From the sequence record MH159197.1: a stretch of 64,000 nt of DNA; one strand, 5' to 3'. Shown piece after piece: positions 2,872 to 53,048 of the stretch (positions are counted from its first letter, which is position 1; each line of letters opens with the position of its first letter). The notes under the pieces are model-generated. The model had not been told where the DNA came from. It was given only the letters and a program-made list of their open reading frames with translations, and did not search any database. The stretch is from Staphylococcus phage VB_SavM_JYL01. Position numbers and translations under genes: made by a program.

Positions 2872-4143
2872 ATGGATTTCAATCAATTTATTAACAATGA
2901 GGCAAGCAAATTAGAAAGTAATAACAGTTCTTTTAACAACAATGTAGAGAGCTATAAACCTAAAAACCCTGTATTACGATTAGGTAATATTAAAGATGCA
3001 AATGGAAATAAAGTTACTAAAGAAAATGCTTTTGTACGAGTATTACCTCCTGCACAAGGAACAAATGTTTTCTTTAAAGAATTTAGAACAACAGGTATTA
3101 ACTACTCTAAGAAAGATGGTTCTCAAGGATTCACAGGACTAACATTACCTGCAGAACCAGGTTCATCTGTCCTTGACCCTTACATTCAGGACTGGATAAC
3201 AAATGGCGTTCAATTTAGTAGATTCCCTAATAAACCTGGAGTACGTTATTACATTCATGTTATTGAATACTTTAATAATAACGGACAAATTCAACCTAAA
3301 ACAGATGAGCAAGGAAATGTAATGATTCAACCTATGGAGTTATCAAACACAGGATATAAAGAATTGGTAGCAAACCTTAAGGATACTATGTTAAAACCGT
3401 CACCTAATGCACCTCATAGTTTTATTTCAGCAAATGAAGCATTCTTAGTTAATATTGCTAAAGCTAAAAAAGGTGAAATGTCATGGAAAGTAAGTGTTTA
3501 TCCTAATGCTCCTTTAGGTGCATTACCTCAAGGATGGGAACAACAATTATCAGACTTAGAACAATTAGCAAAACCAACAGAAGAACAAAACCCTAACTTT
3601 GTTAACTTCTTAATCAATAACGTTAATAACACAGAGTTAAGTCATGATAACTTTAAATTTAACCGTGAGTCTAATGTATTAGGTGAAGAACCTTCAGAAC
3701 CTAAACAAGCTCCTACTCAACAAGATATTGATAGTCAGATGCCAAGTAATATTGGAGGTCAACCTAACCAACCACAACAAGGTCAAGTAGGTCAGTATAC
3801 TCAACAAGGTCAAAATAATGGTCAAGGACAGCAGTTACAAGGTAACCAACAGCCAATTAGTAATACTCAATTTGGTCAAGGAACACCTTCAGGACAACAA
3901 CCTAATAATACAGGTTCAGTTGATTGGGATAACTTAGCTCAACAACAATCACAACCGGATTCAAATCCTTTTAATGACTTTGATGTAAACAGTGTTGATG
4001 ATTCACAAGTACCTTTTGAGACACAACCTCAAAACACACAACAAGCACCTGAACCACAACAAACTACTCAGGAGCCTCCAAAACAAAAACAAACACAAAG
4101 TATTGACGATGTATTAGGTGGTCTAGACTTAGATAACCTATAA
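2872..4143 (+). CDS. hypothetical protein with a Q/N/P-rich low-complexity C-terminal half and an acidic C-terminal tip
   Basis: 423-aa ORF with an SD aaaggag. The C-terminal half has QGQ repeats and the protein ends ...DDVLGGLDLDNL. Confidence 0.65.
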   Translation: MDFNQFINNEASKLESNNSSFNNNVESYKPKNPVLRLGNIKDANGNKVTKENAFVRVLPPAQGTNVFFKEFRTTGINYSKKDGSQGFTGLTLPAEPGSSVLDPYIQDWITNGVQFSRFPNKPGVRYYIHVIEYFNNNGQIQPKTDEQGNVMIQPMELSNTGYKELVANLKDTMLKPSPNAPHSFISANEAFLVNIAKAKKGEMSWKVSVYPNAPLGALPQGWEQQLSDLEQLAKPTEEQNPNFVNFLINNVNNTELSHDNFKFNRESNVLGEEPSEPKQAPTQQDIDSQMPSNIGGQPNQPQQGQVGQYTQQGQNNGQGQQLQGNQQPISNTQFGQGTPSGQQPNNTGSVDWDNLAQQQSQPDSNPFNDFDVNSVDDSQVPFETQPQNTQQAPEPQQTTQEPPKQKQTQSIDDVLGGLDLDNL

Positions 4144-4202: not shown

Positions 4203-5459
4203 ATGGCAAGAGCAAAAAAAGGTAAAGAAGTAGATTTAACAGATTTAAATACAATTGATTTAGGTAAAGAATTAGGATTAACATTATTATCAGATACAAA
4301 TAGAGCAGATATTAAGAATGTTATACCTACAATGGTACCTCAGTATGACTATATTTTAGGTGGAGGTATACCGTTAGGTAGATTAACAGAGGTTTATGGT
4401 TTAACTGGTAGTGGTAAATCAACATTTGCAGTTCATTTGTCTAGGATTGCAACACAATTAGGTGTTATTACCATTTGGATTGATATTGAAGGAACAGCAG
4501 ACAATAATCGTATGGAACAACTTGGAGTAGATGTTTCAAAATTATTCTCTATTCAATCAGGAGAAGGTAGACTTAAAAATACAGTAGAATTATCTGTAGA
4601 GGCTGTAGGTAAAGAATTAGAGTACTGGATTGACACATTTAATGAAAAGATACCTGGAGTACCTATTGTGTTTATTTGGGACTCACTAGGAGCTACACGA
4701 ACTCAGAAAGAGATTGACGGCGGTATTGATGAGAAACAAATGGGTCTTAAAGCATCAGCTACTCAAAAAGTAATTAATGCAGTAACACCTAAATTAAATG
4801 ATACAAATACAGGGTTAATTGTTATTAATCAAGCACGTGACGATATGAATGCAGGTATGTATGGTGACCCTATTAAGTCTACAGGTGGTAGAGCATTTGA
4901 ACATAGTGCTAGTTTACGTATTAAGGTTCATAAAGCATCACAATTAAAACAAAAAAGTGAATTAACTGGTAAAGATGAATATCATGGTCATATCATGCGT
5001 ATTGAAACTAAGAAATCTAAATTATCGAGACCGGGACAAAAAGCAGAAGCAGACTTACTATCTGATTATATGGTAGGTAAAGAAGATGACCCTATATTAT
5101 TAAATGGTATTGACTTAGAACATACTGTATATAAAGAAGCAGTTGAAAGAGGTTTAATTACTAAAGGTGCATGGAGAAACTATGTTACATTGAATGGTGA
5201 AGAGATTAAACTTAGAGATGCTGAATGGGTTCCTGTATTAAAAGATAATAGAGAGTTATATTTAGAATTATTCAGTAGAGTATATGGAGAGCATTTCCCT
5301 AACGGTTACTCACCATTGCTTAATAATAAAGTAATTGTAACTCAACTAGAAGAGTATCAAGCTCTTGAAAATTACTATAAAGAATGGGCTACAGATAATA
5401 AACAAAAGGAACAAGAGGAAGAACTAAAAGGAGAATCTCAAGAAAAGGATTCTGAATAA
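4203..5459 (+). CDS. RecA/UvsX-like recombinase (repair recombinase)
   Basis: Walker A GLTGSGKST and Walker B IVFIWDSLGA are present in a RecA-like core. The SD is ctaggagg. Confidence 0.9.
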   Translation: MARAKKGKEVDLTDLNTIDLGKELGLTLLSDTNRADIKNVIPTMVPQYDYILGGGIPLGRLTEVYGLTGSGKSTFAVHLSRIATQLGVITIWIDIEGTADNNRMEQLGVDVSKLFSIQSGEGRLKNTVELSVEAVGKELEYWIDTFNEKIPGVPIVFIWDSLGATRTQKEIDGGIDEKQMGLKASATQKVINAVTPKLNDTNTGLIVINQARDDMNAGMYGDPIKSTGGRAFEHSASLRIKVHKASQLKQKSELTGKDEYHGHIMRIETKKSKLSRPGQKAEADLLSDYMVGKEDDPILLNGIDLEHTVYKEAVERGLITKGAWRNYVTLNGEEIKLRDAEWVPVLKDNRELYLELFSRVYGEHFPNGYSPLLNNKVIVTQLEEYQALENYYKEWATDNKQKEQEEELKGESQEKDSE

Positions 5460-5816: not shown

Positions 5817-6465
5817 CAATGGTAATAGATATGTAATAGATATAGATGGTATTCCTGTTGATTTTGAAAGAGACTTGGATAGTTTACTTAACAGGTATAA
5901 AAACCTTAGATGGTCGTTGTATCATAGATATGCAGGTATATTATCTAATGACTTTGAAAGACAAGAATTAAGAGAATATATTGATGAGCAATTTATTAAA
6001 CTAGTTAAAGAATATAATATTAGAAGTAAAGTAGATTTTCCAGGGTATATTAAAGCTAAATTAACTTTGAGAGTTCAAAATAGTTATGTTAAAAAGAATG
6101 AAAAGTATAAACGTACTGAAATTATCGGTAAAAAAGATTATACGGTAGAGTCCTTAACAGAAGATTTAAATGAGGACTTTGAGGATAATCAAATTATGAG
6201 TTATGTATTTGATGATATAGAATTTACAGAAGTTCAAAGTGAGCTACTTAAAGAATTACTTATTAATCCTGAAAGAGAAGATGATGCCTTTATAGTTTCT
6301 CAAGTAGCGGAGAAGTTTGATATGAAAAGAAAAGAAGTAGCAAGTGAATTGACAGAATTAAGAGATTATGTTAGATTTAAAATAAATGCATATCATGAGT
6401 ACTACGCAAAGAAAGAATTAAATAATCATAGAGTTAATACTGAAAATCATATTTGGGAAAACTAG
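5803..6465 (+). CDS. sigma-70-family RNA polymerase sigma factor-like protein
   Basis: A region-2-like stretch (EYIDEQFIKLVKEYNIRSKVDFPGYIKAKLTLRVQNSYVKK) and a C-terminal HTH-like region-4 stretch are present. The SD is gaggggg. Confidence 0.6.
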   Translation: MKKANNGNRYVIDIDGIPVDFERDLDSLLNRYKNLRWSLYHRYAGILSNDFERQELREYIDEQFIKLVKEYNIRSKVDFPGYIKAKLTLRVQNSYVKKNEKYKRTEIIGKKDYTVESLTEDLNEDFEDNQIMSYVFDDIEFTEVQSELLKELLINPEREDDAFIVSQVAEKFDMKRKEVASELTELRDYVRFKINAYHEYYAKKELNNHRVNTENHIWEN

Positions 6466-8359: not shown

Positions 8360-9115
8360 ATGGGTGTTATAATAAATTCTAACCATATTCAGTCAGATAC
8401 TTTATATGAGTACGATAGTTTTTTTGATATTGAGAAAGTAGATACGTTTGAAGAAGGATTACTATCAATACAGGATGAACCAACTGTTTTAGCAGGATTT
8501 ATCTATGATGATATTACATTTAATAAGGTTATTAACTCTAATTCAAATATTGATAACAATATTAAGAATAATGATATTTATTATGTTTCTGATATAGGGT
8601 TACTTCCGGATACTTTTATCACTGTTGATTCTAATAAAAAATACTATTCATTATTACAGCAGATAGTTGAGTTAAGTAAAGACCCTTTCCCTAAATGGGT
8701 AGAAACGGATGCAAAAGATTTAACTAGGTATTATAACTTTCAAGATTTTGAAGATGTATTCGATTTAAATAGTTTTTATAAAAAAGAAGTTGACATGGTA
8801 AGAGAAAAGTGCTATAATAATGGTAATGTATATTTATTATATGAAGTCTTGCCTGATTATAAATTACCTCTAGCTTATAGTTTACTTTCAAATAAAGAGC
8901 ATGGTATTGTTATTATCGGTTCACAGACACGTTCTAATAATGATATACTGACTTTTTACGTTAAAGGTATGGATGCTAAGGCAATAGCTAGCATGTTTAA
9001 TGTAGAACATGATTATGATTCTAATATTTTTCATACATTCGTAAATAGTCACATTAATATTTTAGGAAATCAAATAACTAAGTTTATAAGAGAGAAAGGA
9101 AGCAGTTATGAGTAA
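8360..9115 (+). CDS. hypothetical protein
   Basis: 251-aa ORF in the co-directional array. Confidence 0.6.
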   Translation: MGVIINSNHIQSDTLYEYDSFFDIEKVDTFEEGLLSIQDEPTVLAGFIYDDITFNKVINSNSNIDNNIKNNDIYYVSDIGLLPDTFITVDSNKKYYSLLQQIVELSKDPFPKWVETDAKDLTRYYNFQDFEDVFDLNSFYKKEVDMVREKCYNNGNVYLLYEVLPDYKLPLAYSLLSNKEHGIVIIGSQTRSNNDILTFYVKGMDAKAIASMFNVEHDYDSNIFHTFVNSHINILGNQITKFIREKGSSYE

Positions 9116-16554: not shown

Positions 16555-16953
16555 ATGTCAAGAAAAGCAAGTATATTCTATATACTAGTAGTTATTGTTT
16601 TGGCTTTTTCTATTTCATCTTATTATATATCTTCTTTCATGTATCACGACAAAGCAAAGAATGAAGTCTCTACTGAGTTATCAAACACGGGAAAGATTAA
16701 AGAAGAAAAGAACGTAGAATTTGTCGGTGACTATACACTTAAAAAAGTGGAAAATAATAAAGCTTACTTTATGGAAACATTACCTACTTACCTACCCGGT
16801 AGAACAGGAGATAACAGCATAGATATGAGGTACTACAAAACAAGTAGATTTAAAGAAGGGGTAAATTTCAAGCTTATTAGGGTATATACTGAAGATGGGG
16901 AAGATAATCCAATTCATAAGTATAGGTTTGAAGCAGTACCAACCAAAAAGTAA
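16555..16953 (+). CDS. membrane-anchored protein (N-terminal TM)
   Basis: An SD agaggtg sits 6 nt before ATG 16555. The N-terminus is hydrophobic. Confidence 0.6.
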   Translation: MSRKASIFYILVVIVLAFSISSYYISSFMYHDKAKNEVSTELSNTGKIKEEKNVEFVGDYTLKKVENNKAYFMETLPTYLPGRTGDNSIDMRYYKTSRFKEGVNFKLIRVYTEDGEDNPIHKYRFEAVPTKK

Positions 16954-38485: not shown

Positions 38486-38725
38486 ATGCAAGAGTTAATA
38501 ACTTATATAATTTACCATAAAGAATCAGGTAAAGTAGTAGCACAGGATTTAAGTGAATTAGAAACTATTGAACTTATATACAAAATGATAGAAGAGGGAT
38601 TAGTAAAAGATATAGAATTATCTAACTACCGTCTTTTTAGTGGGAATATAGATATACTTAACTTATTAGTAGACATACGTAAACAAGGTATATTTGATTT
38701 TGAACATACTTGGCACACAAGATAA
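38486..38725 (+). CDS. hypothetical protein, paralog family B
   Basis: The protein contains TYIIYHKESGKVVAQDL...LLVDIRKQGIFDF. The SD is atagggagg. Confidence 0.6.
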   Translation: MQELITYIIYHKESGKVVAQDLSELETIELIYKMIEEGLVKDIELSNYRLFSGNIDILNLLVDIRKQGIFDFEHTWHTR

Positions 38726-38736
38726 GGAGGGATAGG

Positions 38737-39081
38737 ATGATAGTTATATATTCAGATGAGTCTAGGGATTACTTAAGAGATGAGTTCTTACCTTGGCTTA
38801 ATGATAGAGATAGATATTTAAAATATTATAAGAATGAGTTACCTGAAGATATAGACTCTTCTTATGTTGTATCAGTTGTATACTGTAGGGATATGGAAGG
38901 TCTTATGAATAGGAAAGATATTCTTATTGGTAATAGTTATAGAGAGCCTGTAGCTGTATTAGGTGTTCCTGAATTTTTTGGTAACTATTCTAATTATTAC
39001 TATTATAAAGGAGAGCATATAAGTAAGCATGACCTAGGAGAGATAATTAGGTTAAAGGCTTGGCAACGTAATTTTGACTAA
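38737..39081 (+). CDS. hypothetical protein (start MIVIYSDE)
   Basis: An SD aaggaggg sits 7 nt before ATG 38737. Confidence 0.55.
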   Translation: MIVIYSDESRDYLRDEFLPWLNDRDRYLKYYKNELPEDIDSSYVVSVVYCRDMEGLMNRKDILIGNSYREPVAVLGVPEFFGNYSNYYYYKGEHISKHDLGEIIRLKAWQRNFD

Positions 39082-39165
39082 GTAGCTCTCTCTAATTTCA
39101 CTAAGTAGCTCCCTAGGAATTGCCTAAGTAGCTCGGTGTGATTTTACCCTAAGTAGCTCCCTCTG
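39077..39165 (+). repeat. four direct repeats of CTAAGTAGCTC with 22-25 bp periodicity (iteron-like)
   Basis: gaCTAAGTAGCTCtctc, caCTAAGTAGCTCccta, gcCTAAGTAGCTCggtg and ccCTAAGTAGCTCcctc. Confidence 0.7.
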
Positions 39166-39196
39166 TTTTCTATTAGTTTATTTTAACCGCTTCACG

Positions 39197-39212: not shown

Positions 39213-39565
39213 ATCGGAATAATAGCAGACCGCAAAAAGAAATACACTAGGATATTATTCCCAGTGTATTGTATAATTTTTTTATATAATATTTGTAGAA
39301 GCGGTTGGGGTTTGTCCCTTGCCTTACTACACTTAATATATTACAGTATAGTTATTCAGAAGTCAATACTTTTGAGTAACTTTTTTTTAAATTCTTTTTT
39401 CTTCTATATAATAGTAGTTTTTAGCCCTAAAAAAAGTTTTTTAAAAGAATTTACATTTTCTTATTGACTTATTAATCATATGATAGTAATATAAAGGTAC
39501 AGCAAGAGAACAGCAACAAGGTATTAGAATTATATAAAAAAATTATTTAATTGGAGATGATTTAA

Positions 39566-40001: not shown

Positions 40002-40079
40002 TTAGTATAGAAGTTAAGACAAGCCACATAGCAAATAACGAAATTAAATAAAAAAATTATAGAATAGGATTTGATTATT

Positions 40080-40376: not shown

Positions 40377-40416
40377 TGAATTAAATAAAAAAATTATATA
40401 AAAAGGGTATGATATT

Positions 40417-40608
40417 ATGAAATTTAAAATAGAAAAAAATAACAGTGATATAAAAACTTTATGGAATTTAGCTAAAAATGGATATATGAGTTATCAAACT
40501 GTACACAATATATTTAAAAATGAATCAGATGAATTTATTATATTTAACAGTAAACAAACTTATAATAAATTTATGGAATTAAGATATAATAGAAGTGCAA
40601 TTCAATAG
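40417..40608 (+). CDS. hypothetical protein
   Basis: 63-aa ORF with an SD aaaagggtatg. Confidence 0.5.
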   Translation: MKFKIEKNNSDIKTLWNLAKNGYMSYQTVHNIFKNESDEFIIFNSKQTYNKFMELRYNRSAIQ

Positions 40609-40619
40609 TATAAAAAAGT

Positions 40620-40665
40620 TATATAATTCCCTAGGATTAAATTCCTAGGGATTTTTATTTGTTTT
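40620..40665 (+). terminator. terminator-like hairpin
   Basis: ccctaggatt-aaa-ttcctaggg followed by atttttattt. Confidence 0.5.
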
Positions 40666-40699
40666 AATTTATATAAAAAAATTATTTAATAAATAAATT

Positions 40700-41100
40700 A
40701 GTGTAAAATTGACTGTTGACAAGAATATATTTTTTATGGTATAATGAAGTGAAGACCTTTTTTAGTATAAAAAAATTATTATATAAAAAAATTATATAAA
40801 AAAGTTTAGTTCCGGTCTTTCTCCCCACCTTGTCATATTTATAGTGGAAGGGTTAGGCGGGTTACCACTGTTTTACTTTCTATATATAGTATACTATGAA
40901 TAATGGTAATTGTCAACACCTTTCAGAAACTTTTTTTACTTTATTTTATTATTATATAAAAAAATTATACATATTTTAGGGCTCCACTTCCATTATATAA
41001 TAATTCGGTCTTAATGTCAATACTTTTATTCAAAAAAGTTTTTTAAATTAGTTTCAACAAATCTATTGACTTATGTTTATTTCTATAGTAATATATAGTT
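40700..41100. repeat. intergenic repeat element, copy A (about 390 bp; homologous to 42890..43150, with a diverged core at 45520..45600)
   Basis: The shared order is as follows. A + promoter ttgaca..tataatgaagtgaa comes first, followed by ttttttagtataaaaa and attatataaaaaaattatataaa. A GC-rich core ggtcttt..cccc follows, then a leftward TTGACA-17-TATACT promoter. It closes with aaaaaagtttt..aaatctattgactta..taatatatag. Confidence 0.65.
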
Positions 41101-41124
41101 ATACCAACAAGGGAGGCAATACAA

Positions 41125-41283
41125 ATGCTAAAATTTAAATGGAAAAACAAAACAATCAAATCAACTCAAAAAACGGATAACATTCTTTTACTTCTTATAG
41201 GTGGTTTAGTTGCAACAGTCACACCTAAACTTGTAAACTGGTTTTTACTACTACAAGATAATATAAATATTTTTTTAAGATAA
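41125..41283 (+). CDS. 52-aa membrane protein (below the track cutoff)
   Basis: An SD caagggagg sits 9 nt before the ATG. The protein has one TM helix. Confidence 0.45.
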   Translation: MLKFKWKNKTIKSTQKTDNILLLLIGGLVATVTPKLVNWFLLLQDNINIFLR

Positions 41284-41331
41284 CTATTGACAACTTAGAA
41301 ACAACGTGTTAATATTAAGATACAAGGTAAG

Positions 41332-41351
41332 GGAAGCGGTTGACCGCTTCC
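41332..41351. promoter_or_regulatory. palindrome GGAAGCGGT-tg-ACCGCTTCC directly downstream of promoter 41287 (operator-like)
   Basis: ttgacaacttagaaacaacgtgttaatattaagatacaaggtaagggaagcggttgaccgcttccgacc. Confidence 0.5.
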
Positions 41352-41449
41352 GACCTAAATAAAAAAAGTTTAAAAAAACTATTGACAGTCACTTGAAACC
41401 ATGATATTATTAAGATAACAAAAAACAAACAGAAAAGGAATTGATTATA

Positions 41450-41773
41450 ATGAAATTTATCAAAACTATCGAAAACTTATTAGAAAAAGCAGAAAACAAA
41501 GGGCAAGCAATTTTAAACGGTCGTTACTTTGATGGGTATAGCAAAGGTGAGCTTGAGGAAAAATATGCAATTGAAATTGATGGCAACAAATTGATTATGC
41601 GTCACTGGGGTACACAAACAATTGAGATTGATTTAAGCATAAATGAGATTGTTTCATATTACGGTGAAAGCAATTCAGACCGTGACAGTTTAAACACACT
41701 TGTATATTGCTTAGGAATTGCGCCAAACTTTAGATACTTACCAAGCAAAAACTTATTCATTTACGAAAATTAA
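41450..41773 (+). CDS. hypothetical protein (start MKFIKTIENL)
   Basis: The conserved leader aaaaggaattgattataATG is present. Confidence 0.55.
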   Translation: MKFIKTIENLLEKAENKGQAILNGRYFDGYSKGELEEKYAIEIDGNKLIMRHWGTQTIEIDLSINEIVSYYGESNSDRDSLNTLVYCLGIAPNFRYLPSKNLFIYEN

Positions 41774-41782
41774 TTAAATAAA

Positions 41783-41815
41783 GGGCTTGACTTCCAAGCC
41801 CTACCATGTTATTAT
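41783..41815 (+). promoter_or_regulatory. hairpin with TTGACT in its loop followed by an extended -10 (hairpin-embedded -35 cassette)
   Basis: agggcttg-acttc-caagccct, then accatgttattattaa. Confidence 0.5.
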
Positions 41816-41872
41816 TAAATTGTAAGGTAATCAAGCACAACGACAAAATAAACTGAAAAGGGATTGATGAAA

Positions 41873-42379
41873 ATGACAAATAATAAGGATTTTAATAAAA
41901 ATTTCTTAAGACTACTAAAAGTTAAAAATGTAAATGACAAAAGGGTGCAAGGTTTCATAAACAAGCATGACATTAAACTTAAAGACAAAGAAGAAAGCTC
42001 ACAAGGATATGTTAACGTATTATATAAGGGTTATGACTTTGTAATATCAAAAGACTATGCAGGTCAAACGGCGTTATATGTTAACATGCGTAATTTAGGG
42101 GTTGACTACAAACATTTTAAACATTTAGATTTTAATAATATTGTTCAAGCGTTAGACAGAAAAAATAATAATCGTGTTGAATGTAAGGAAACAAAAACAC
42201 AACAATATAAAGAATTTAAACACCGTCAAAAGACAGAAAAAGAAATGTTAACATACTATGAAAAGGATATCGAAAAGCTAAAAGAAGAACTGGAACGAAC
42301 ACAAAAAATCTACAATGATAAAATAAAGAAAATAGAAAATTACGATAAAAAAATATCTAGACTAAAAAAATCAAAATAA
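41873..42379 (+). CDS. hypothetical basic/coiled-coil protein (start MTNNKDF)
   Basis: The conserved leader aaagggattgatgaaaATG is present. Confidence 0.55.
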   Translation: MTNNKDFNKNFLRLLKVKNVNDKRVQGFINKHDIKLKDKEESSQGYVNVLYKGYDFVISKDYAGQTALYVNMRNLGVDYKHFKHLDFNNIVQALDRKNNNRVECKETKTQQYKEFKHRQKTEKEMLTYYEKDIEKLKEELERTQKIYNDKIKKIENYDKKISRLKKSK

Positions 42380-42448
42380 GGCTTGACACTTTCAAGCCCT
42401 CATGATATACTTAGTATAACAAATCAAAAAGAAAAGGAATTGATGAAA

Positions 42449-42829
42449 ATGTTCAAATTACAAAATAAAGTGGAAATTATCGTACCTAAGGAAGATAACA
42501 ACGGCGTTGAGATTGCAGACAAACGTATTAAAGAATATGTAAATAGCATCACAATGGAAGCGGGTGGTTGTACTATTACAGAAATCAAAGGGCAATGGTA
42601 CTCAGAAGATGAAAAACGTATAATGGAAGATAACAACTTAAATCTTGAGTGGTACTACATGCAAGACAGTGCCAAATTCATGACAGTTGAATTAAAAGGC
42701 ATTGTAAGACGTTTAATTGAAGTTTACGGACAAGAAGCAATAAGCATTAAAGTTAACGGCACATTGTACATTGTAGACCAATCAGACATTGAAGAATTAC
42801 ACACAACATTATTAAATATCATGAAATAA
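42449..42829 (+). CDS. hypothetical protein (start MFKLQNKVEI)
   Basis: The conserved leader aaaaggaattgatgaaaATG follows the hairpin-promoter aaggcttgacactttcaagccct. Confidence 0.55.
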   Translation: MFKLQNKVEIIVPKEDNNGVEIADKRIKEYVNSITMEAGGCTITEIKGQWYSEDEKRIMEDNNLNLEWYYMQDSAKFMTVELKGIVRRLIEVYGQEAISIKVNGTLYIVDQSDIEELHTTLLNIMK

Positions 42830-42889
42830 AAAATTTATATAAACCGCTTCGGATTAAATTCTTGAAGTGGTTATTTTCTTTTAAATTAG

Positions 42890-43150
42890 TGCTTGACAAA
42901 TGTACTAAAAAATGAGATAATGAAGTGAACGCATTTTTTAGTATAAAAATAATATTATATAAAAAAATTATATAAATGAATTTATTTCAGGTCTTTCCCG
43001 TAACCCCTCTTGGGCTACCCTGGTATCTCTACAATTATTATTATACTATAGGTCATGAAGATTGTCAATAACTTTCTTCAAAATAATTTATTTAAAAAAG
43101 TTTCATAAATCTATTGACTTACTATTAATTATGGTGTAATATATAGATAT
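42890..43150. repeat. intergenic repeat element, copy B
   Basis: Aligns with copy A. It contains the leftward promoter TTGACA-17-TATAAT (RC of attattatactataggtcatgaagattgtcaata) and the GC core ggtctttcccgtaacccctcttgggctaccctggta. Confidence 0.65.
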
Positions 43151-43271
43151 AAGGTTAAGGAAGCGGAACACCTAAAAAAGAAATTAAAAAAACTTTTAAA
43201 AAGGTGTTGACAAACTTCAAACCACATGTTAATATTAAGATAACAAATAAAACAAAAAGGAATTGATAATT

Positions 43272-43493
43272 ATGAACAGATTAGAAATAATAAAAGACAC
43301 GGCAATGGAATACATCATTATGATGGATAACGGAGTTATGGACGGACAATTGACACAAGAAGAATACAACGAAGCGGTTAGCTTTGAAAAGGTTTACGAT
43401 TACACTTTATCAGAAGCAAATCAAGAATGTAAATTCTTAGGCGGTAAAATTTTAACTTTCCTAGTACATGAAGCAATTGAAGAATACGCATAA
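43272..43493 (+). CDS. hypothetical acidic protein (start MNRLEIIK)
   Basis: The conserved leader aaaaggaattgataattATG is present. Confidence 0.5.
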   Translation: MNRLEIIKDTAMEYIIMMDNGVMDGQLTQEEYNEAVSFEKVYDYTLSEANQECKFLGGKILTFLVHEAIEEYA

Positions 43494-45486: not shown

Positions 45487-45519
45487 ATCCTATTATATAA
45501 TTTTTTTATATTATACGGG

Positions 45520-52458: not shown

Positions 52459-52502
52459 TTAAATACCCCTTTTTTACTTTATCTATTTATAATATATCAA
52501 AA

Positions 52503-52532
52503 TAAAAAACACCTATTAATGAAAATAGGTGT
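52503..52532 (-). terminator. rho-independent terminator
   Basis: aaaaaa-acacctat-taatgaaa-ataggtgt. On the - strand it is followed by a T-run. Confidence 0.65.
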
Positions 52533-52639
52533 CCGACAGAGCTCCCGTACTTAGATTACGGTTAATAATATTTTACGACAATTATATGAGACCCTCTGTC
52601 GTTAAAACACTCGTCACTGCGTTATTCCACAAGATATTT

Positions 52640-52976: not shown

Positions 52977-53048
52977 TGGACTCTGTAGGATTCGAACCTA
53001 CAGTCAAACCGTTATGAGCGGTTGGCTTTACCTTTAAGCTAAGAGTCC
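52977..53048 (-). tRNA. tRNA-Met (anticodon CAU), elongator-type (or a lysidine tRNA-Ile2; cannot be distinguished)
   Basis: The RC reads GGACTCT-TA-GCTT-AAAGGTA-AAGC-C-AACCG-CTCATAA-CGGTT-TGACT-GTAGG-TTCGAAT-CCTAC-AGAGTCC-A. All four stems are perfect, G1-C72 is paired, and CCA is not encoded. Confidence 0.8.

What the first reader, a model, noticed from the sequence alone, without database searches (positions are those of the whole stretch)
40700..43150. Duplicated intergenic element of about 250-390 bp with divergent promoters (copies at 40700-41100 and 42890-43150)
Both copies carry the same parts in the same order. A rightward promoter comes first: ttgacaagaatatattttttatggtataatg in copy A and ttgacaaatgtactaaaaaatgagataatg in copy B. 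This is followed by gaagtgaa..ttttttagtataaaaa and an A/T block attatataaaaaaattatataaa. A GC-rich core (ggtctttctcccc.. versus ggtctttcccgtaacccc..) follows. Next comes a leftward consensus promoter: TTGACA-17-TATACT in copy A and TTGACA-17-TATAAT in copy B, both on the minus strand. The element closes with aaaaaagtttt..aaatctattgactta..taatatatag, a rightward promoter. Copy A has an extra about 100-bp insertion. This is a complex bidirectional control region duplicated within the block.
Basis: seen in the sequence. Interest (0 to 1): 0.6.

Follow-up and report, generated by a model that had tools for sequence, protein, structure and literature searches.

The report
Paired small-RNA cassettes in phage repeat
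The duplicated "promoter region" in the terminal repeat of this Staphylococcus phage K-like genome is real, and each copy most likely encodes a short leftward-transcribed, folded non-coding RNA faced by a strong opposing promoter; the RNA family has no entry in Rfam and its function is unknown.

Summary
Copy A (about 40700-41110) and copy B (about 42890-43150) share two blocks (88% over 81 nt, E=3e-26; 79% over 90 nt, E=2e-16), in the same order.

The window is the long terminal repeat of a Kayvirus (phage K-like). The GC-rich core is not just spacer between promoters. In 32 distinct copies from about 27 phage records of at least four Twortvirinae genera, it forms helices that keep pairing through compensatory changes.
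- Type A (copy A): a 5-bp and a 7-bp helix in pseudoknot topology, 98.7% of cells paired.
- Type B (copy B): a 7-bp hairpin, 100% paired.
- Slid controls pair only 31-65%.

An invariant G·U, which would be A·C on the + strand, points to the leftward transcript.

In all 29 copies checked for promoters (21 genomes), a leftward sigma-A-type promoter sits at a fixed distance from the core. A stronger convergent promoter (P1), followed by an A/T palindrome, lies beyond it.

Copy A's extra ~104 nt is the retained promoter of the TreM HNH homing-endonuclease cassette found at this site in phage K.

No Rfam match. Similarity to CRISPR repeats was tested and is not significant. The RNA's function is unknown. 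Transcription is supported only by one published minus-strand small RNA (snc002) in phage K.

The parts
40628..40651 (+). Terminator hairpin of the preceding gene (TreL-like ORF 40417-40608). It marks the left limit of copy A.
   Evidence: Terminator scan. The equivalent site is annotated as a terminator in phage K and ISP. Its loop, GGATTAAATTC, is shared with the hairpin to the left of copy B (family D19).
40716..40745 (+). P1 of copy A: rightward consensus promoter, TTGACA-18-TATAAT with an extended -10 TG. It is convergent with the small-RNA gene.
   Evidence: 12/12 match. The same site is annotated as a putative promoter in ISP. A promoter of this kind (11-12/12) lies 70-185 nt beyond the RNA tail in all 29 copies examined.
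40746..40773 (+). Conserved start of the P1 transcript: GAAGTGAAGACCTTTTTTAGTATAAAAA.
   Evidence: Occurs exactly twice in the window. Found 1-2 times per terminal-repeat locus in 10 of the 11 phage loci scanned, always on the + strand.
40779..40799 (.). A/T block TTATATAAAAAAATTATATAA. On the leftward RNA it folds as an 8-bp A-U hairpin followed by a run of seven U at about 40775-40769. This is a candidate terminator for the leftward RNA, not a demonstrated one.
   Evidence: Motif count of 13 against 0.22 expected. Fold prediction. The 3' end of phage K snc002 (position 5022) abuts the equivalent U run. It does not meet the consensus terminator scan, which requires a G+C-rich stem.
40809..40881 (-). 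Type A small-RNA core. Helix S1: 40869-40865 with 40847-40843. Helix S2: 40861-40855 with 40830-40824. The two helices cross (pseudoknot topology). Conserved purine tail GGAGAAAGACC at 40823-40814. Predicted transcription start near 40881.
   Evidence: Covariance model R2: 91.7 bits, E=3.9e-18. Pair counts: 98.7% of cells paired, 6 pairs with compensatory changes, no one-sided changes, slid controls 40-52%. RNAalifold predicts S2 independently. S2 also appears in the single-sequence minimum-energy fold.
40888..40916 (-). P2 of copy A: leftward promoter TTGACA-17-TATACT, which drives the type A RNA.
   Evidence: 11/12 match. A promoter at a fixed distance (-10 end to tail, 59-68 nt) is present in all 17 type A copies. 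The equivalent is annotated in ISP.
40917..41020 (-). The extra ~104 nt of copy A. It holds a further A/T block (40952-40972) and a second leftward promoter at 41020-40992, TTGACATTAAGACCGAATTATTATATAAT.
   Evidence: 12/12 match. The promoter is identical to the promoter of the phage K gp013 (TreM) HNH endonuclease gene. In phage K the HNH gene lies between this promoter and P2; here it is absent.
41066..41094 (+). Rightward promoter of TreN (ORF 41125-41283), divergent from the leftward promoters. A shared AAAAAAGTTTTTT upstream tract lies between them.
   Evidence: Promoter scan. Its orthologue is listed as an early promoter in phage K RNA-seq studies.
42843..42871 (+). Terminator-like hairpin after ORF 42383-42829. 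It marks the left limit of copy B.
   Evidence: Read directly from the sequence: ACCGCTTC...GAAGTGGT followed by TATTTTCTTTT. Homologous to the left edge of copy A (family D19). The consensus scan did not call it.
42893..42921 (+). P1 of copy B: TTGACA-17-GATAAT with TG.
   Evidence: 11/12 match. Convergent arrangement conserved across copies.
42955..42975 (.). A/T block of copy B, an exact copy of the one in copy A. The leftward RNA has a run of five U at about 42949-42945.
42980..43034 (-). Type B small-RNA core. A 7-bp hairpin pairs 43018-43012 with 43006-43000, closed by the loop AAGAG. Purine tail GGGAAAGACC at 42999-42990. Predicted transcription start near 43033.
   Evidence: Covariance model R1: 74.9 bits, E=2.7e-14. 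Pair counts: 100% of cells paired, 4 of 7 pairs with compensatory changes, slid controls 31-65%. The hairpin appears in the minimum-energy and centroid folds.
43040..43068 (-). P2 of copy B: leftward promoter TTGACA-17-TATAAT.
   Evidence: 12/12 match. Fixed distance to the tail (40-49 nt) in all 12 type B copies. 11 of the 12 score 9-12/12; the PG33 copy has a poor -10.
43114..43142 (+). Rightward promoter at the right end of copy B. It is the first of two tandem promoters (the second is at 43207-43235) ahead of ORF 43263-43493.
   Evidence: Promoter scan. Homologous to 41066-41094.

Best explanation
Each copy is a small-RNA cassette in the host-takeover (long terminal repeat) region of a Kayvirus.

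Proposed layout and mechanism:
1. A host sigma-A-type promoter (P2) fires leftward. In copy A it is reinforced by the retained promoter of the HNH cassette.
2. It produces a short non-coding RNA, predicted at about 113 nt for A and about 89 nt for B.
3. The 5' part of this RNA folds. Type A forms two crossing helices (pseudoknot topology). Type B forms the same 7-bp helix closed into a hairpin.
4. Both types share an invariant GCC/GGU centre with a G·U wobble, three hypervariable outer pairs, and a conserved single-stranded purine tail, GRGAAAGAS.
5. The RNA then runs into an A/T palindrome plus a U run, which probably ends it.
6. Directly beyond that sits P1, a stronger rightward promoter. 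Its transcript is antisense to the whole small RNA and heads towards the next early gene.
7. The two promoters are therefore expected to antagonise each other, by polymerase collision and/or antisense pairing, and so to set when and how much small RNA accumulates.

What is shown: the duplication; the promoter matches and their conserved geometry; the covarying helices and the strand they favour; the origin of copy A's extra segment.

What is inferred: that the RNAs are made in this phage; their ends; the P1/P2 antagonism.

What is unknown: what the RNA binds. The invariant helix centre and purine tail are the likely recognition surface for a protein or RNA partner.
For: Identity of the region:
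- It is the Kayvirus long terminal repeat: 240 phage records match, and both copies are 100% identical to vB_SauM-SDQ.

Structure:
- Type A: 19 copies, 98.7% of cells paired, 6 of 12 pairs with changes on both sides, no one-sided changes, slid controls 40-52%.
- RNAalifold finds helix S2 on its own.
- Type B: 13 distinct copies, 100% paired, 4 of 7 pairs compensatory, slid controls 31-65%.
- There are 13 different S2 sequences in all. All are fully paired apart from one terminal U·U.

Strand:
- The invariant G·U, plus one G-C to G-U change, lowers pairing to 90.4% (A) and 84.6% (B) on the + strand.

Relatedness of A and B:
- Each covariance model picks up the other type. The type B model hits type A at E=0.002-3.4; the type A model hits type B at E=0.07-2.

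Architecture:
- All 29 copies examined (21 phage genomes) have P2 at a fixed distance and a convergent P1 scoring 11-12/12.
- One phage carries three complete modules, and one has a module in inverted orientation.

Selection pattern:
- The core is the most divergent segment against Stab20 and K (79% and 71%), while its flanks are 95-99% identical.
- Yet it is 100% identical to the more distant Stab23. This indicates alleles exchanged between phages.

Not coding:
- Short ORFs in the leftward RNA are not conserved between alleles (read; the window ORF 40682-40828 has no counterpart in copy B).

Transcription:
- Phage K RNA-seq reports a minus-strand small RNA, snc002, at 5022-5067. That is the tail-to-U-run part of the phage K type A unit.

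Origin of the extra segment:
-.
Against: - There are no transcript data for this phage.
- Published phage K promoter tables list neither P1 nor P2.
- snc002 was a software prediction accepted at only 5-fold coverage, and it does not cover the folded core.
- Single-sequence folding energy is not better than shuffles, with z of -0.55 and -1.40.
- No canonical G+C-rich terminator ends the leftward RNA.
- The copies fall into a modest number of alleles (6 type A and 7 type B helix variants). The number of independent evolutionary events is therefore smaller than the cell counts suggest. The shuffle control can also be exceeded by related sequences alone.
- Base pairing on one strand with G·T tolerance would also fit a single-stranded DNA structure.
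- No partner, target or phenotype is known.
- The P1/P2 antagonism is pure inference. The two RNA-seq studies disagree on the timing class of the neighbouring HNH gene: 'middle', 'early'.
Confidence: 0.6

Rival explanations
1. It is DNA-level control only. The element is a cluster of early promoters and operator-like A/T blocks. The GC-rich core is a protein-binding site or inert spacer, and any short leftward transcripts are by-products.
For: - The density of consensus promoters is high.
- The A/T block recurs in the 5' leaders of several early genes, as an operator or leader element would.
- The right half (leftward promoter, AAAAAAGTTTT tract, rightward promoter) also occurs at 39338-39492, where it served a protein-coding gene, TreI.
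Against: - A protein-binding site does not predict 10 positions that change on both sides while staying complementary.
- It also does not predict a G·U that is kept on one strand only.
- The fixed promoter-to-helix distance in 29 copies fits a transcribed product.
Confidence: 0.12
2. The functional transcript is the rightward one from P1. The A/T block and the core would form a leader or attenuator: in type A, helix S1 followed by a U-rich stretch. This would control read-through into TreN and the following early genes, with the leftward promoters only modulating it.
For: - P1 is the best promoter of the unit (12/12 with TG) and its first 30 nt are highly conserved.
- S1 has no G·U and can form on either strand.
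- On the + strand S1 is followed by GTTTTACTTTCT.
- The A/T block lies at +27 to +47, as in the leaders of other early genes.
Against: - S2, the helix with the most covariation, carries an A·C mismatch in every copy on the + strand and is not predicted in + strand folds.
- Type B has no U run after its hairpin on the + strand.
- The leftward promoter is conserved at a fixed distance from the helix in nearly every copy.
Confidence: 0.1
3. The units are scars: leftovers of deleted genes or of homing-endonuclease traffic. Promoters and terminators were left facing nothing, as at the deleted TreI locus in this same window, and there is no function of their own.
For: - Copy A's extra segment is exactly such a leftover, an HNH promoter without its gene.
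- The TreI gene is deleted in this window, leaving a promoter (39366-39338), about 65 nt, and a terminator (39270-39241).
- The region is a mosaic with many insertions and deletions between phages.
Against: - Scars decay. These cores instead persist in at least four genera, often in 2-3 copies per repeat, with compensatory substitutions and intact promoters.
Confidence: 0.08
4. The RNA is an RNA anti-CRISPR, that is, a solitary mimic of the staphylococcal type III-A CRISPR repeat that soaks up Cas6/Csm proteins.
For: - By eye, type B shares pieces with the repeats: GAUACC or GAUAACUACC, CCC..AAGA..GGGG, and ACGGGAA.
- The S. aureus repeat variant gives its best local alignment in four loci at the type B core, on the correct strand. 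This includes one tie, all four carry a single allele, and the match rests on a 10-nt exact stretch.
- The repeat sequences were checked against the literature.
Against: - In this window the core is not the best match to the repeat: it scores 20, while other places score 22-26.
- Against shuffled repeats, P=0.04-0.09 for type B and 0.2-0.64 for type A. The reversed repeat, used as a control, scores as high.
- The published definition of solitary repeat units requires at least 90% identity and coverage, which is far from met.
- The 8-nt crRNA tag is not conserved.
- Type III-A systems are rare in staphylococci (own knowledge), whereas the RNA was found in every phage examined here except Twort.
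Confidence: 0.03
5. It is a DNA structure or replication element. Either the helices form in single-stranded DNA, or the promoter plus A/T-rich unwinding block acts as a transcription-primed origin, as at the phage T4 origins.
For: - Covariation cannot distinguish RNA from single-stranded DNA of the same strand.
- A strong promoter directly followed by about 50 bp of almost pure A/T resembles a promoter plus unwinding element.
Against: - Nothing else points to replication, and there is no nearby replication gene.
- The A/T block is a common leader motif across the repeat.
- The conserved promoter-to-helix spacing argues for a transcript.
Confidence: 0.04

Closest known systems
Phage K 'snc002' (and neighbour 'snc003'), small non-coding RNAs reported from RNA-seq of phage K (Finstrlova et al. 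2022, PMC9241854)
   Same: Same intergenic region (TreL to TreM/TreN) and same strand. snc002 (5022-5067, minus strand) is the stretch from the purine tail to the U run of the phage K type A unit. snc003 corresponds to window 41287-41380.
   Different: snc002 was a software prediction of 46 nt with no promoter assigned. It excludes the folded core. No structure, conservation, second paralogue (type B) or opposing promoter was described.
Cis-antisense RNA pairs made from convergent promoters, for example plasmid copy-control RNAs, the phage P22 sar RNA and the phage P1/P7 c4 RNA (own knowledge)
   Same: Two facing promoters about 135-165 bp apart would give fully complementary short transcripts. 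The sequences fall into discrete alleles with compensatory changes.
   Different: No regulated target gene is evident on the leftward strand. Neither interaction nor regulation has been shown. The conserved structure lies on one strand only.
Type I toxin-antitoxin loci of Firmicutes (par/Fst, SprA1/SprA1AS; own knowledge)
   Same: Convergent small transcription units with strong promoters, in an A/T-rich context.
   Different: There is no conserved small hydrophobic ORF. The ORFs present differ or are interrupted between alleles and between copies A and B.
RNA anti-CRISPRs / solitary repeat units (Camara-Wilpert et al. 2023, PMC10651486)
   Same: A phage-encoded small structured RNA immediately downstream of a strong promoter, in an early or anti-defence-type region.
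   Different: Similarity to staphylococcal CRISPR repeats is at chance level once base composition is controlled. The >=90% identity criterion is not met.
Free-standing HNH homing-endonuclease cassette TreM (phage K gp013; HNH_3 + NUMOD4)
   Same: It occupies the same site. Its promoter is the second leftward promoter of copy A, and in phage K its terminator supplies the -35 box of P2.
   Different: The endonuclease gene is absent from this window. The small-RNA core is present with or without it, so the RNA is not part of the cassette.

Membership tests
Sigma-70/sigma-A-type promoter | TTGACA and TATAAT hexamers 16-18 bp apart, optionally with a TG extension | tested here: met
   P1 scores 12/12 and 11/12, both with TG. 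The leftward promoters score 11/12, 12/12 and 12/12. The next-gene promoters score 9/12. The matches are conserved in 29 copies.
Sigma-70/sigma-A-type promoter | Demonstrated transcription start | not testable with these tools
   Only the orthologues of the HNH and TreN promoters are listed for RNA-seq-derived transcription units in phage K. P1 and P2 appear only as 'putative' in the ISP record.
Structured non-coding RNA (conserved secondary structure) | Base pairs maintained through compensatory substitutions, above controls | tested here: met
   Type A: 98.7% paired, 6 compensatory pairs, slid controls 40-52%. Type B: 100% paired, 4 compensatory pairs, slid controls 31-65%. RNAalifold agrees for S2.
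Structured non-coding RNA (conserved secondary structure) | Absence of conserved coding potential | tested here: met
   Candidate ORFs differ or stop early between alleles (read). The 48-codon ORF at 40682-40828 has no counterpart in copy B.
H-type RNA pseudoknot (type A only) | Two helices, with one strand of the second lying in the loop of the first | tested here: met
   S1 (columns 15-19 with 37-41) and S2 (columns 23-29 with 54-60) both covary and cross each other. Whether they form at the same time in three dimensions cannot be tested here.
Any Rfam 15 family | Covariance-model match at or near the gathering score | tested here: not met
   No hit in the element at gathering thresholds. 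None up to E=10 other than a chance-level CRISPR-DR63 match on the TreL terminator hairpin.
Intrinsic (rho-independent) terminator for the leftward RNA | G+C-rich stem-loop immediately followed by a U run | tested here: inconclusive
   The A/T block gives an 8-bp hairpin made only of A-U pairs, followed 3-4 nt later by U7 (copy A) or U5 (copy B). It fails the consensus scan, which needs at least 3 G-C pairs. The 3' end of snc002 in phage K abuts the U run.
RNA anti-CRISPR / solitary CRISPR repeat unit | At least 90% identity and coverage to a CRISPR repeat of a host system (SRUFinder criteria) | tested here: not met
   The best gapped alignment covers the repeat only with several insertions and deletions. 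Shuffle test: P=0.04-0.09 (type B) and 0.2-0.64 (type A). The reversed repeat scores as high.
Type I toxin-antitoxin | Conserved small, usually hydrophobic toxin ORF with a ribosome-binding site on one of the two convergent RNAs | tested here: not met
   No ORF is shared by copies A and B or by the type A alleles.
Type III toxin-antitoxin antitoxin RNA | Tandem array of ~35-nt repeats next to a toxin endoribonuclease gene | tested here: not met
   Each module has a single core. The neighbours are small Tre ORFs with no Pfam match above threshold.
Homing-endonuclease cassette | Endonuclease ORF present | tested here: not met
   The window keeps only the promoter (41020-40992). The HNH_3/NUMOD4 gene of phage K is missing.

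The most novel reading that the evidence does not exclude
The two RNAs belong to a family of early, multi-copy effector RNAs of staphylococcal Twort-like phages. Under this reading, the invariant helix centre and purine tail dock onto a host or phage protein. The hypervariable, freely exchanged outer pairs and loops would then reflect an arms race. The RNA would be either a decoy against an RNA-sensing host defence, or an allele-specific antisense system used in competition between co-infecting phages, with the convergent P1 transcript as its built-in antidote or timer.
Probability: 0.12. Interest if true: 0.8.

Novelty: new member of a known kind. Interest (0 to 1): 0.5.

Why it matters
Kayviruses are the main therapeutic phages against Staphylococcus aureus. 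Their terminal repeat is the first DNA expressed after infection and is thought to carry the host-takeover functions, yet almost none of its products has a known role.

A conserved, multi-copy, structured RNA expressed there would add an RNA player to a region so far analysed only for small proteins. Its discrete, exchangeable alleles give a ready experimental handle, through helix-breaking and compensatory mutants.

It would also explain why strong promoters in this region point at no gene. It shows that published small-RNA annotations (snc002) capture only a fragment of the unit.

If the RNA turns out to be dispensable, the result is still useful for annotation. The leftward 'orphan' promoters and the ORFs that some records call across them (for example ISP ORF142) should not be read as genes.

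Tried and rejected
- **IMG/VR scan for the P1 leader pattern:** 0 hits.
- **Metagenome scan with a 15-base pattern:** 120 or more stretches. None carried the longer motif, so these are chance hits from a pattern that was too short.
- **Bacterial and archaeal genomes scanned for the type B helix plus tail:** one chance hit in an Acidimicrobiia MAG and nothing in staphylococci. There is no evidence that the RNA copies a host sequence.
- **IMG/VR scan with the same pattern:** two phage contigs only. One of them added three new type B copies.
- **Rfam:** nothing at gathering thresholds or at E up to 10.
- **Plasmid collection:** no match for either core.
- **CRISPR-repeat mimicry:** looked persuasive by eye, but fails the window-wide ranking and the shuffle and reversed-sequence controls.
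- **Search for trans targets in the 64-kb window:** only 10-nt complementarities, as expected by chance.
- **Long-range pairing between the purine tail and the P1 leader (GAAAGACC with GGUCUUC):** present in copy A, not conserved in copy B or phage K (by eye).
- **Small ORFs on either transcript:** not conserved.
- **Phage Twort, 82-130.7 kb including its TreN-like region:** no hit with either model. Its remaining 82 kb was not searched.
- **Timing argument from the HNH gene:** dropped, because the two RNA-seq studies disagree on whether it is 'middle' or 'early'.

Full report
**What the region is.**
The stretch 40600-43200 matches 240 Staphylococcus phage records. Both copies are 100% identical to phage vB_SauM-SDQ. 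In annotated relatives the region lies inside the long terminal repeat of Kayvirus phages, the block of small 'Tre' early genes (Stab20; phage K; P4W). Copy A lies between a TreL-like ORF (40417-40608) and TreN (41125-41283). Copy B lies between ORF 42383-42829 and ORF 43263-43493. None of these small proteins has a Pfam domain above threshold.

**Checking the observation.**
- The copies share two co-linear blocks: 40741-40821 with 42917-42997 (88%, E=3e-26), and 41015-41103 with 43063-43151 (79%, E=2e-16). The repeat finder family D7 agrees.
- The leader pattern occurs twice in 64 kb, against 0.08 expected.
In fact the outer rightward promoter (P1) and the leftward promoter (P2) face each other.
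- The A/T block TTATATAAAAAAATTATATAA is a general motif of this repeat. It gives 13 matches against 0.22 expected, 11 of them between 39269 and 45513. It usually lies about 30-55 nt downstream of an early promoter, in the leader of a gene.

**The extra segment in copy A.**
In phage K the same intergenic region holds an HNH homing-endonuclease gene on the minus strand: gp013/TreM, with HNH_3 and NUMOD4 domains. Its promoter, TTGACATTAAGACCGAATTATTATATAAT, is listed in two RNA-seq studies and is identical to window 41020-40992. The window lacks the gene. About 87 nt (40896-40982) stand where phage K has the roughly 560-nt cassette. In phage K the terminator hairpin of the HNH gene supplies a -35 box (TTGACC) for the next leftward promoter (annotated in ISP). 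Copy A's 'insertion' is therefore the remnant or empty form of that cassette site, and it now gives copy A two tandem leftward promoters.

**The core is a folded RNA on the leftward strand.**
I collected the homologous regions from about 27 phage records. I then located every core with HMMs and covariance models. Two types exist.
- *Type A* (copy A, 40881 to 40809 on the minus strand). It has helix S1 (AGYGS/SCRCU) and helix S2. The 5' strand of S2 lies in the loop of S1, which gives pseudoknot topology.
 - Six S2 versions occur, for example CCCGCCU/AGGUGGG in this window, GGAGCCU/AGGUUCC in phage K, GUUGCCU/AGGUAAC in Stab20 and CCGGCUU/AAGUCGG in Biyabeda.
 - Over 19 copies, 98.7% of cells pair. 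Six of 12 pairs change on both sides and none changes on one side only. Sliding the partner by 1-3 columns gives 40-52% (first set).
 - RNAalifold predicts S2 without guidance.
- *Type B* (copy B, 43034 to 42980 on the minus strand). It has one 7-bp hairpin with loop AAGAG, in seven versions. Pairing is 100%, 4 of 7 pairs are compensatory, and slid controls give 31-65%.

Both helices share the centre G-C-C/G-G-U with an invariant G·U, and both are followed by the purine tail GRGAAAGAS. Each covariance model detects the other type, at E=0.002-3.4 (type B model on type A copies) and E=0.07-2 (type A model on type B copies). The type B hairpin therefore looks like the type A S2 helix closed by a short loop.

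On the + strand the G·U becomes A·C, and pairing falls to 90.4% and 84.6%. This favours the leftward transcript. No ORF in that transcript is conserved between alleles. Rfam 15 has no matching family.

**Conserved architecture.**
- In all 17 type A and 12 type B copies checked, a leftward promoter lies at a fixed distance from the tail: 59-68 nt for type A and 40-49 nt for type B. Scores are 9-12/12, with one weak exception.
- A convergent P1 scoring 11-12/12 lies 70-185 nt beyond the tail.
- One uncultivated phage genome has three complete modules in a row.
- One Sepunavirus has a module in the opposite orientation.
- In T-SE-E1 a type B core sits where this window has type A.
- Both types occur in Kayvirus, Sepunavirus, Sciuriunavirus and Baoshanvirus. 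The two copies in the window are thus old paralogues, not a recent duplication.
- In BLAST searches, type B cores are found in 50 phage records and the window's type A allele in 77, all from Staphylococcus or Mammaliicoccus phages.
- Phage Twort gave no hit in the 49 kb searched.

**Allele pattern.**
Against Stab20 and phage K, the core is the most divergent segment (79% and 71%), while the flanking genes and promoters are 95-99% identical. Against the more distant Stab23, the core is 100% identical. The cores behave as discrete alleles that move between phages by recombination.

**Ends of the RNA.**
The promoter positions predict starts near 40881 and 43033. On the leftward RNA the A/T block folds as an 8-bp A-U hairpin followed by U7 (copy A) or U5 (copy B). 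That would give RNAs of about 113 and 89 nt. This is not a canonical terminator. The next hairpins on that strand are the bidirectional terminators of the upstream genes.

In phage K, Finstrlova et al. list a minus-strand small RNA, snc002, at 5022-5067. Its 3' end abuts the equivalent U run and its 5' end falls in the purine tail. This is the only direct evidence of leftward transcripts. It was a software prediction accepted at 5-fold coverage. Neither that study nor the 2024 rpoC study lists P1 or P2. Other Kayvirus transcriptome papers discuss only the two long non-coding RNAs.

**How it most likely works.**
I read each copy as a small-RNA gene (P2, folded core, purine tail, A/T hairpin plus U run) opposed by P1. 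The P1 transcript is antisense to the entire small RNA and continues towards the next early gene. Collision between polymerases, or antisense pairing, would then tune the small RNA. That P1 travels with the core in every copy is the argument for coupling. The coupling itself is inferred.

What the RNA binds is unknown. The invariant helix centre with its G·U, and the conserved tail, are the obvious recognition surface.

**Alternatives considered.**
- A DNA-only control region does not explain compensatory changes or the strand asymmetry.
- A rightward leader or attenuator fits helix S1 and the strength of P1. It is contradicted by the A·C mismatch in S2 and by type B.
- A scar reading is suggested by the HNH remnant and by the deleted TreI gene at 39241-39366. 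Scars would not persist with covariation across genera.
- A CRISPR-repeat mimic looked attractive by eye, and the repeat sequences were verified in the literature. It fails on three counts:
 - The window core ranks below several other places.
 - Shuffled repeats reach the observed score with P=0.04-0.64, and the reversed repeat scores as high.
 - The published criterion of at least 90% identity is not met.
- A single-stranded DNA structure or a replication origin cannot be excluded, but nothing specific supports either.

**Verdict.**
The promoters were already annotated as putative in one relative, and part of the leftward transcript had been listed as a predicted small RNA. What is new is the covarying fold, the two paralogous types and the conserved opposing-promoter architecture. 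I found none of these in Rfam or in the papers searched. The function remains open.

Noticed in passing
window 52498-52629 (-), next to tRNA-Met at 52977-53048 (-): Rfam DUF3800-I RNA match at 46.4 bits (gathering score 44.2), just downstream of tRNA-Met. This is the position of the very abundant Kayvirus 'lncRNA1/lnc001' reported by RNA-seq. The papers compare that RNA with GOLLD/ROOL, not with DUF3800-I.
   Followed up: no
window 39074-39172: Four tandem units of about 23-25 nt sharing CTAAGTAGCTC, starting at the stop codon of the TreH-like ORF 38710-39081 (families D8 and D13). In Stab20 this stretch matches two places, so it is duplicated there. Purpose unknown.
   Followed up: no
window 39241-39366 (-): The TreI gene (phage K gp009, Stab20 g011c) is deleted in this phage. 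Its leftward promoter (39366-39338) and terminator (39270-39241) remain, about 65 nt apart. This would give an accidental mini-transcript.
   Followed up: partly
window 41287-41380 (+): A promoter (TTGACA-17-TAATAT) followed by the hairpin GGAAGCGGTTGACCGCTTCC, then a second promoter at 41382-41410. This is the equivalent of phage K 'snc003' (6186-6352, plus strand), which has its own early promoter in the published table.
   Followed up: partly
L006 (phage CF7) about 8650-8800 and L011 (PSU4) about 3150-3300; window about 43152-43163: These phages carry another convergent mini-unit. Its + strand hairpin, GGAGCCCAAGACCAAAGAAGGGGTTTC, resembles the type B helix and is followed by a T run. The window retains only its first ~12 nt (TAAGGTTAAGGA) after the copy B right-hand promoter. 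The covariance models did not pick it up.
   Followed up: no
window 39530-39550, 40044-40064, 40381-40401, 40669-40689, 45493-45513: The A/T block TTAWATAAAAAAATTATWTAA recurs in the leaders of several early genes, usually just upstream of the ribosome-binding site. It may be an operator, a leader element, or a one-way terminator against antisense transcription.
   Followed up: partly
L003 (phage ISP) 2983-3117 (-); window 40682-40828 (-): The ISP record annotates a 44-codon ORF (ORF142) that runs antisense through the A/T block and P1. The window has a 48-codon equivalent. The frame is interrupted in copy B and has no start codon in phage K, so it is probably not a gene.
   Followed up: partly
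window 16786-16855 (+): Best local match in the window to the S. epidermidis type III-A CRISPR repeat (score 26; window mean 11.4, sd 2.5). Its position suggests it lies in coding sequence; not examined.
   Followed up: no
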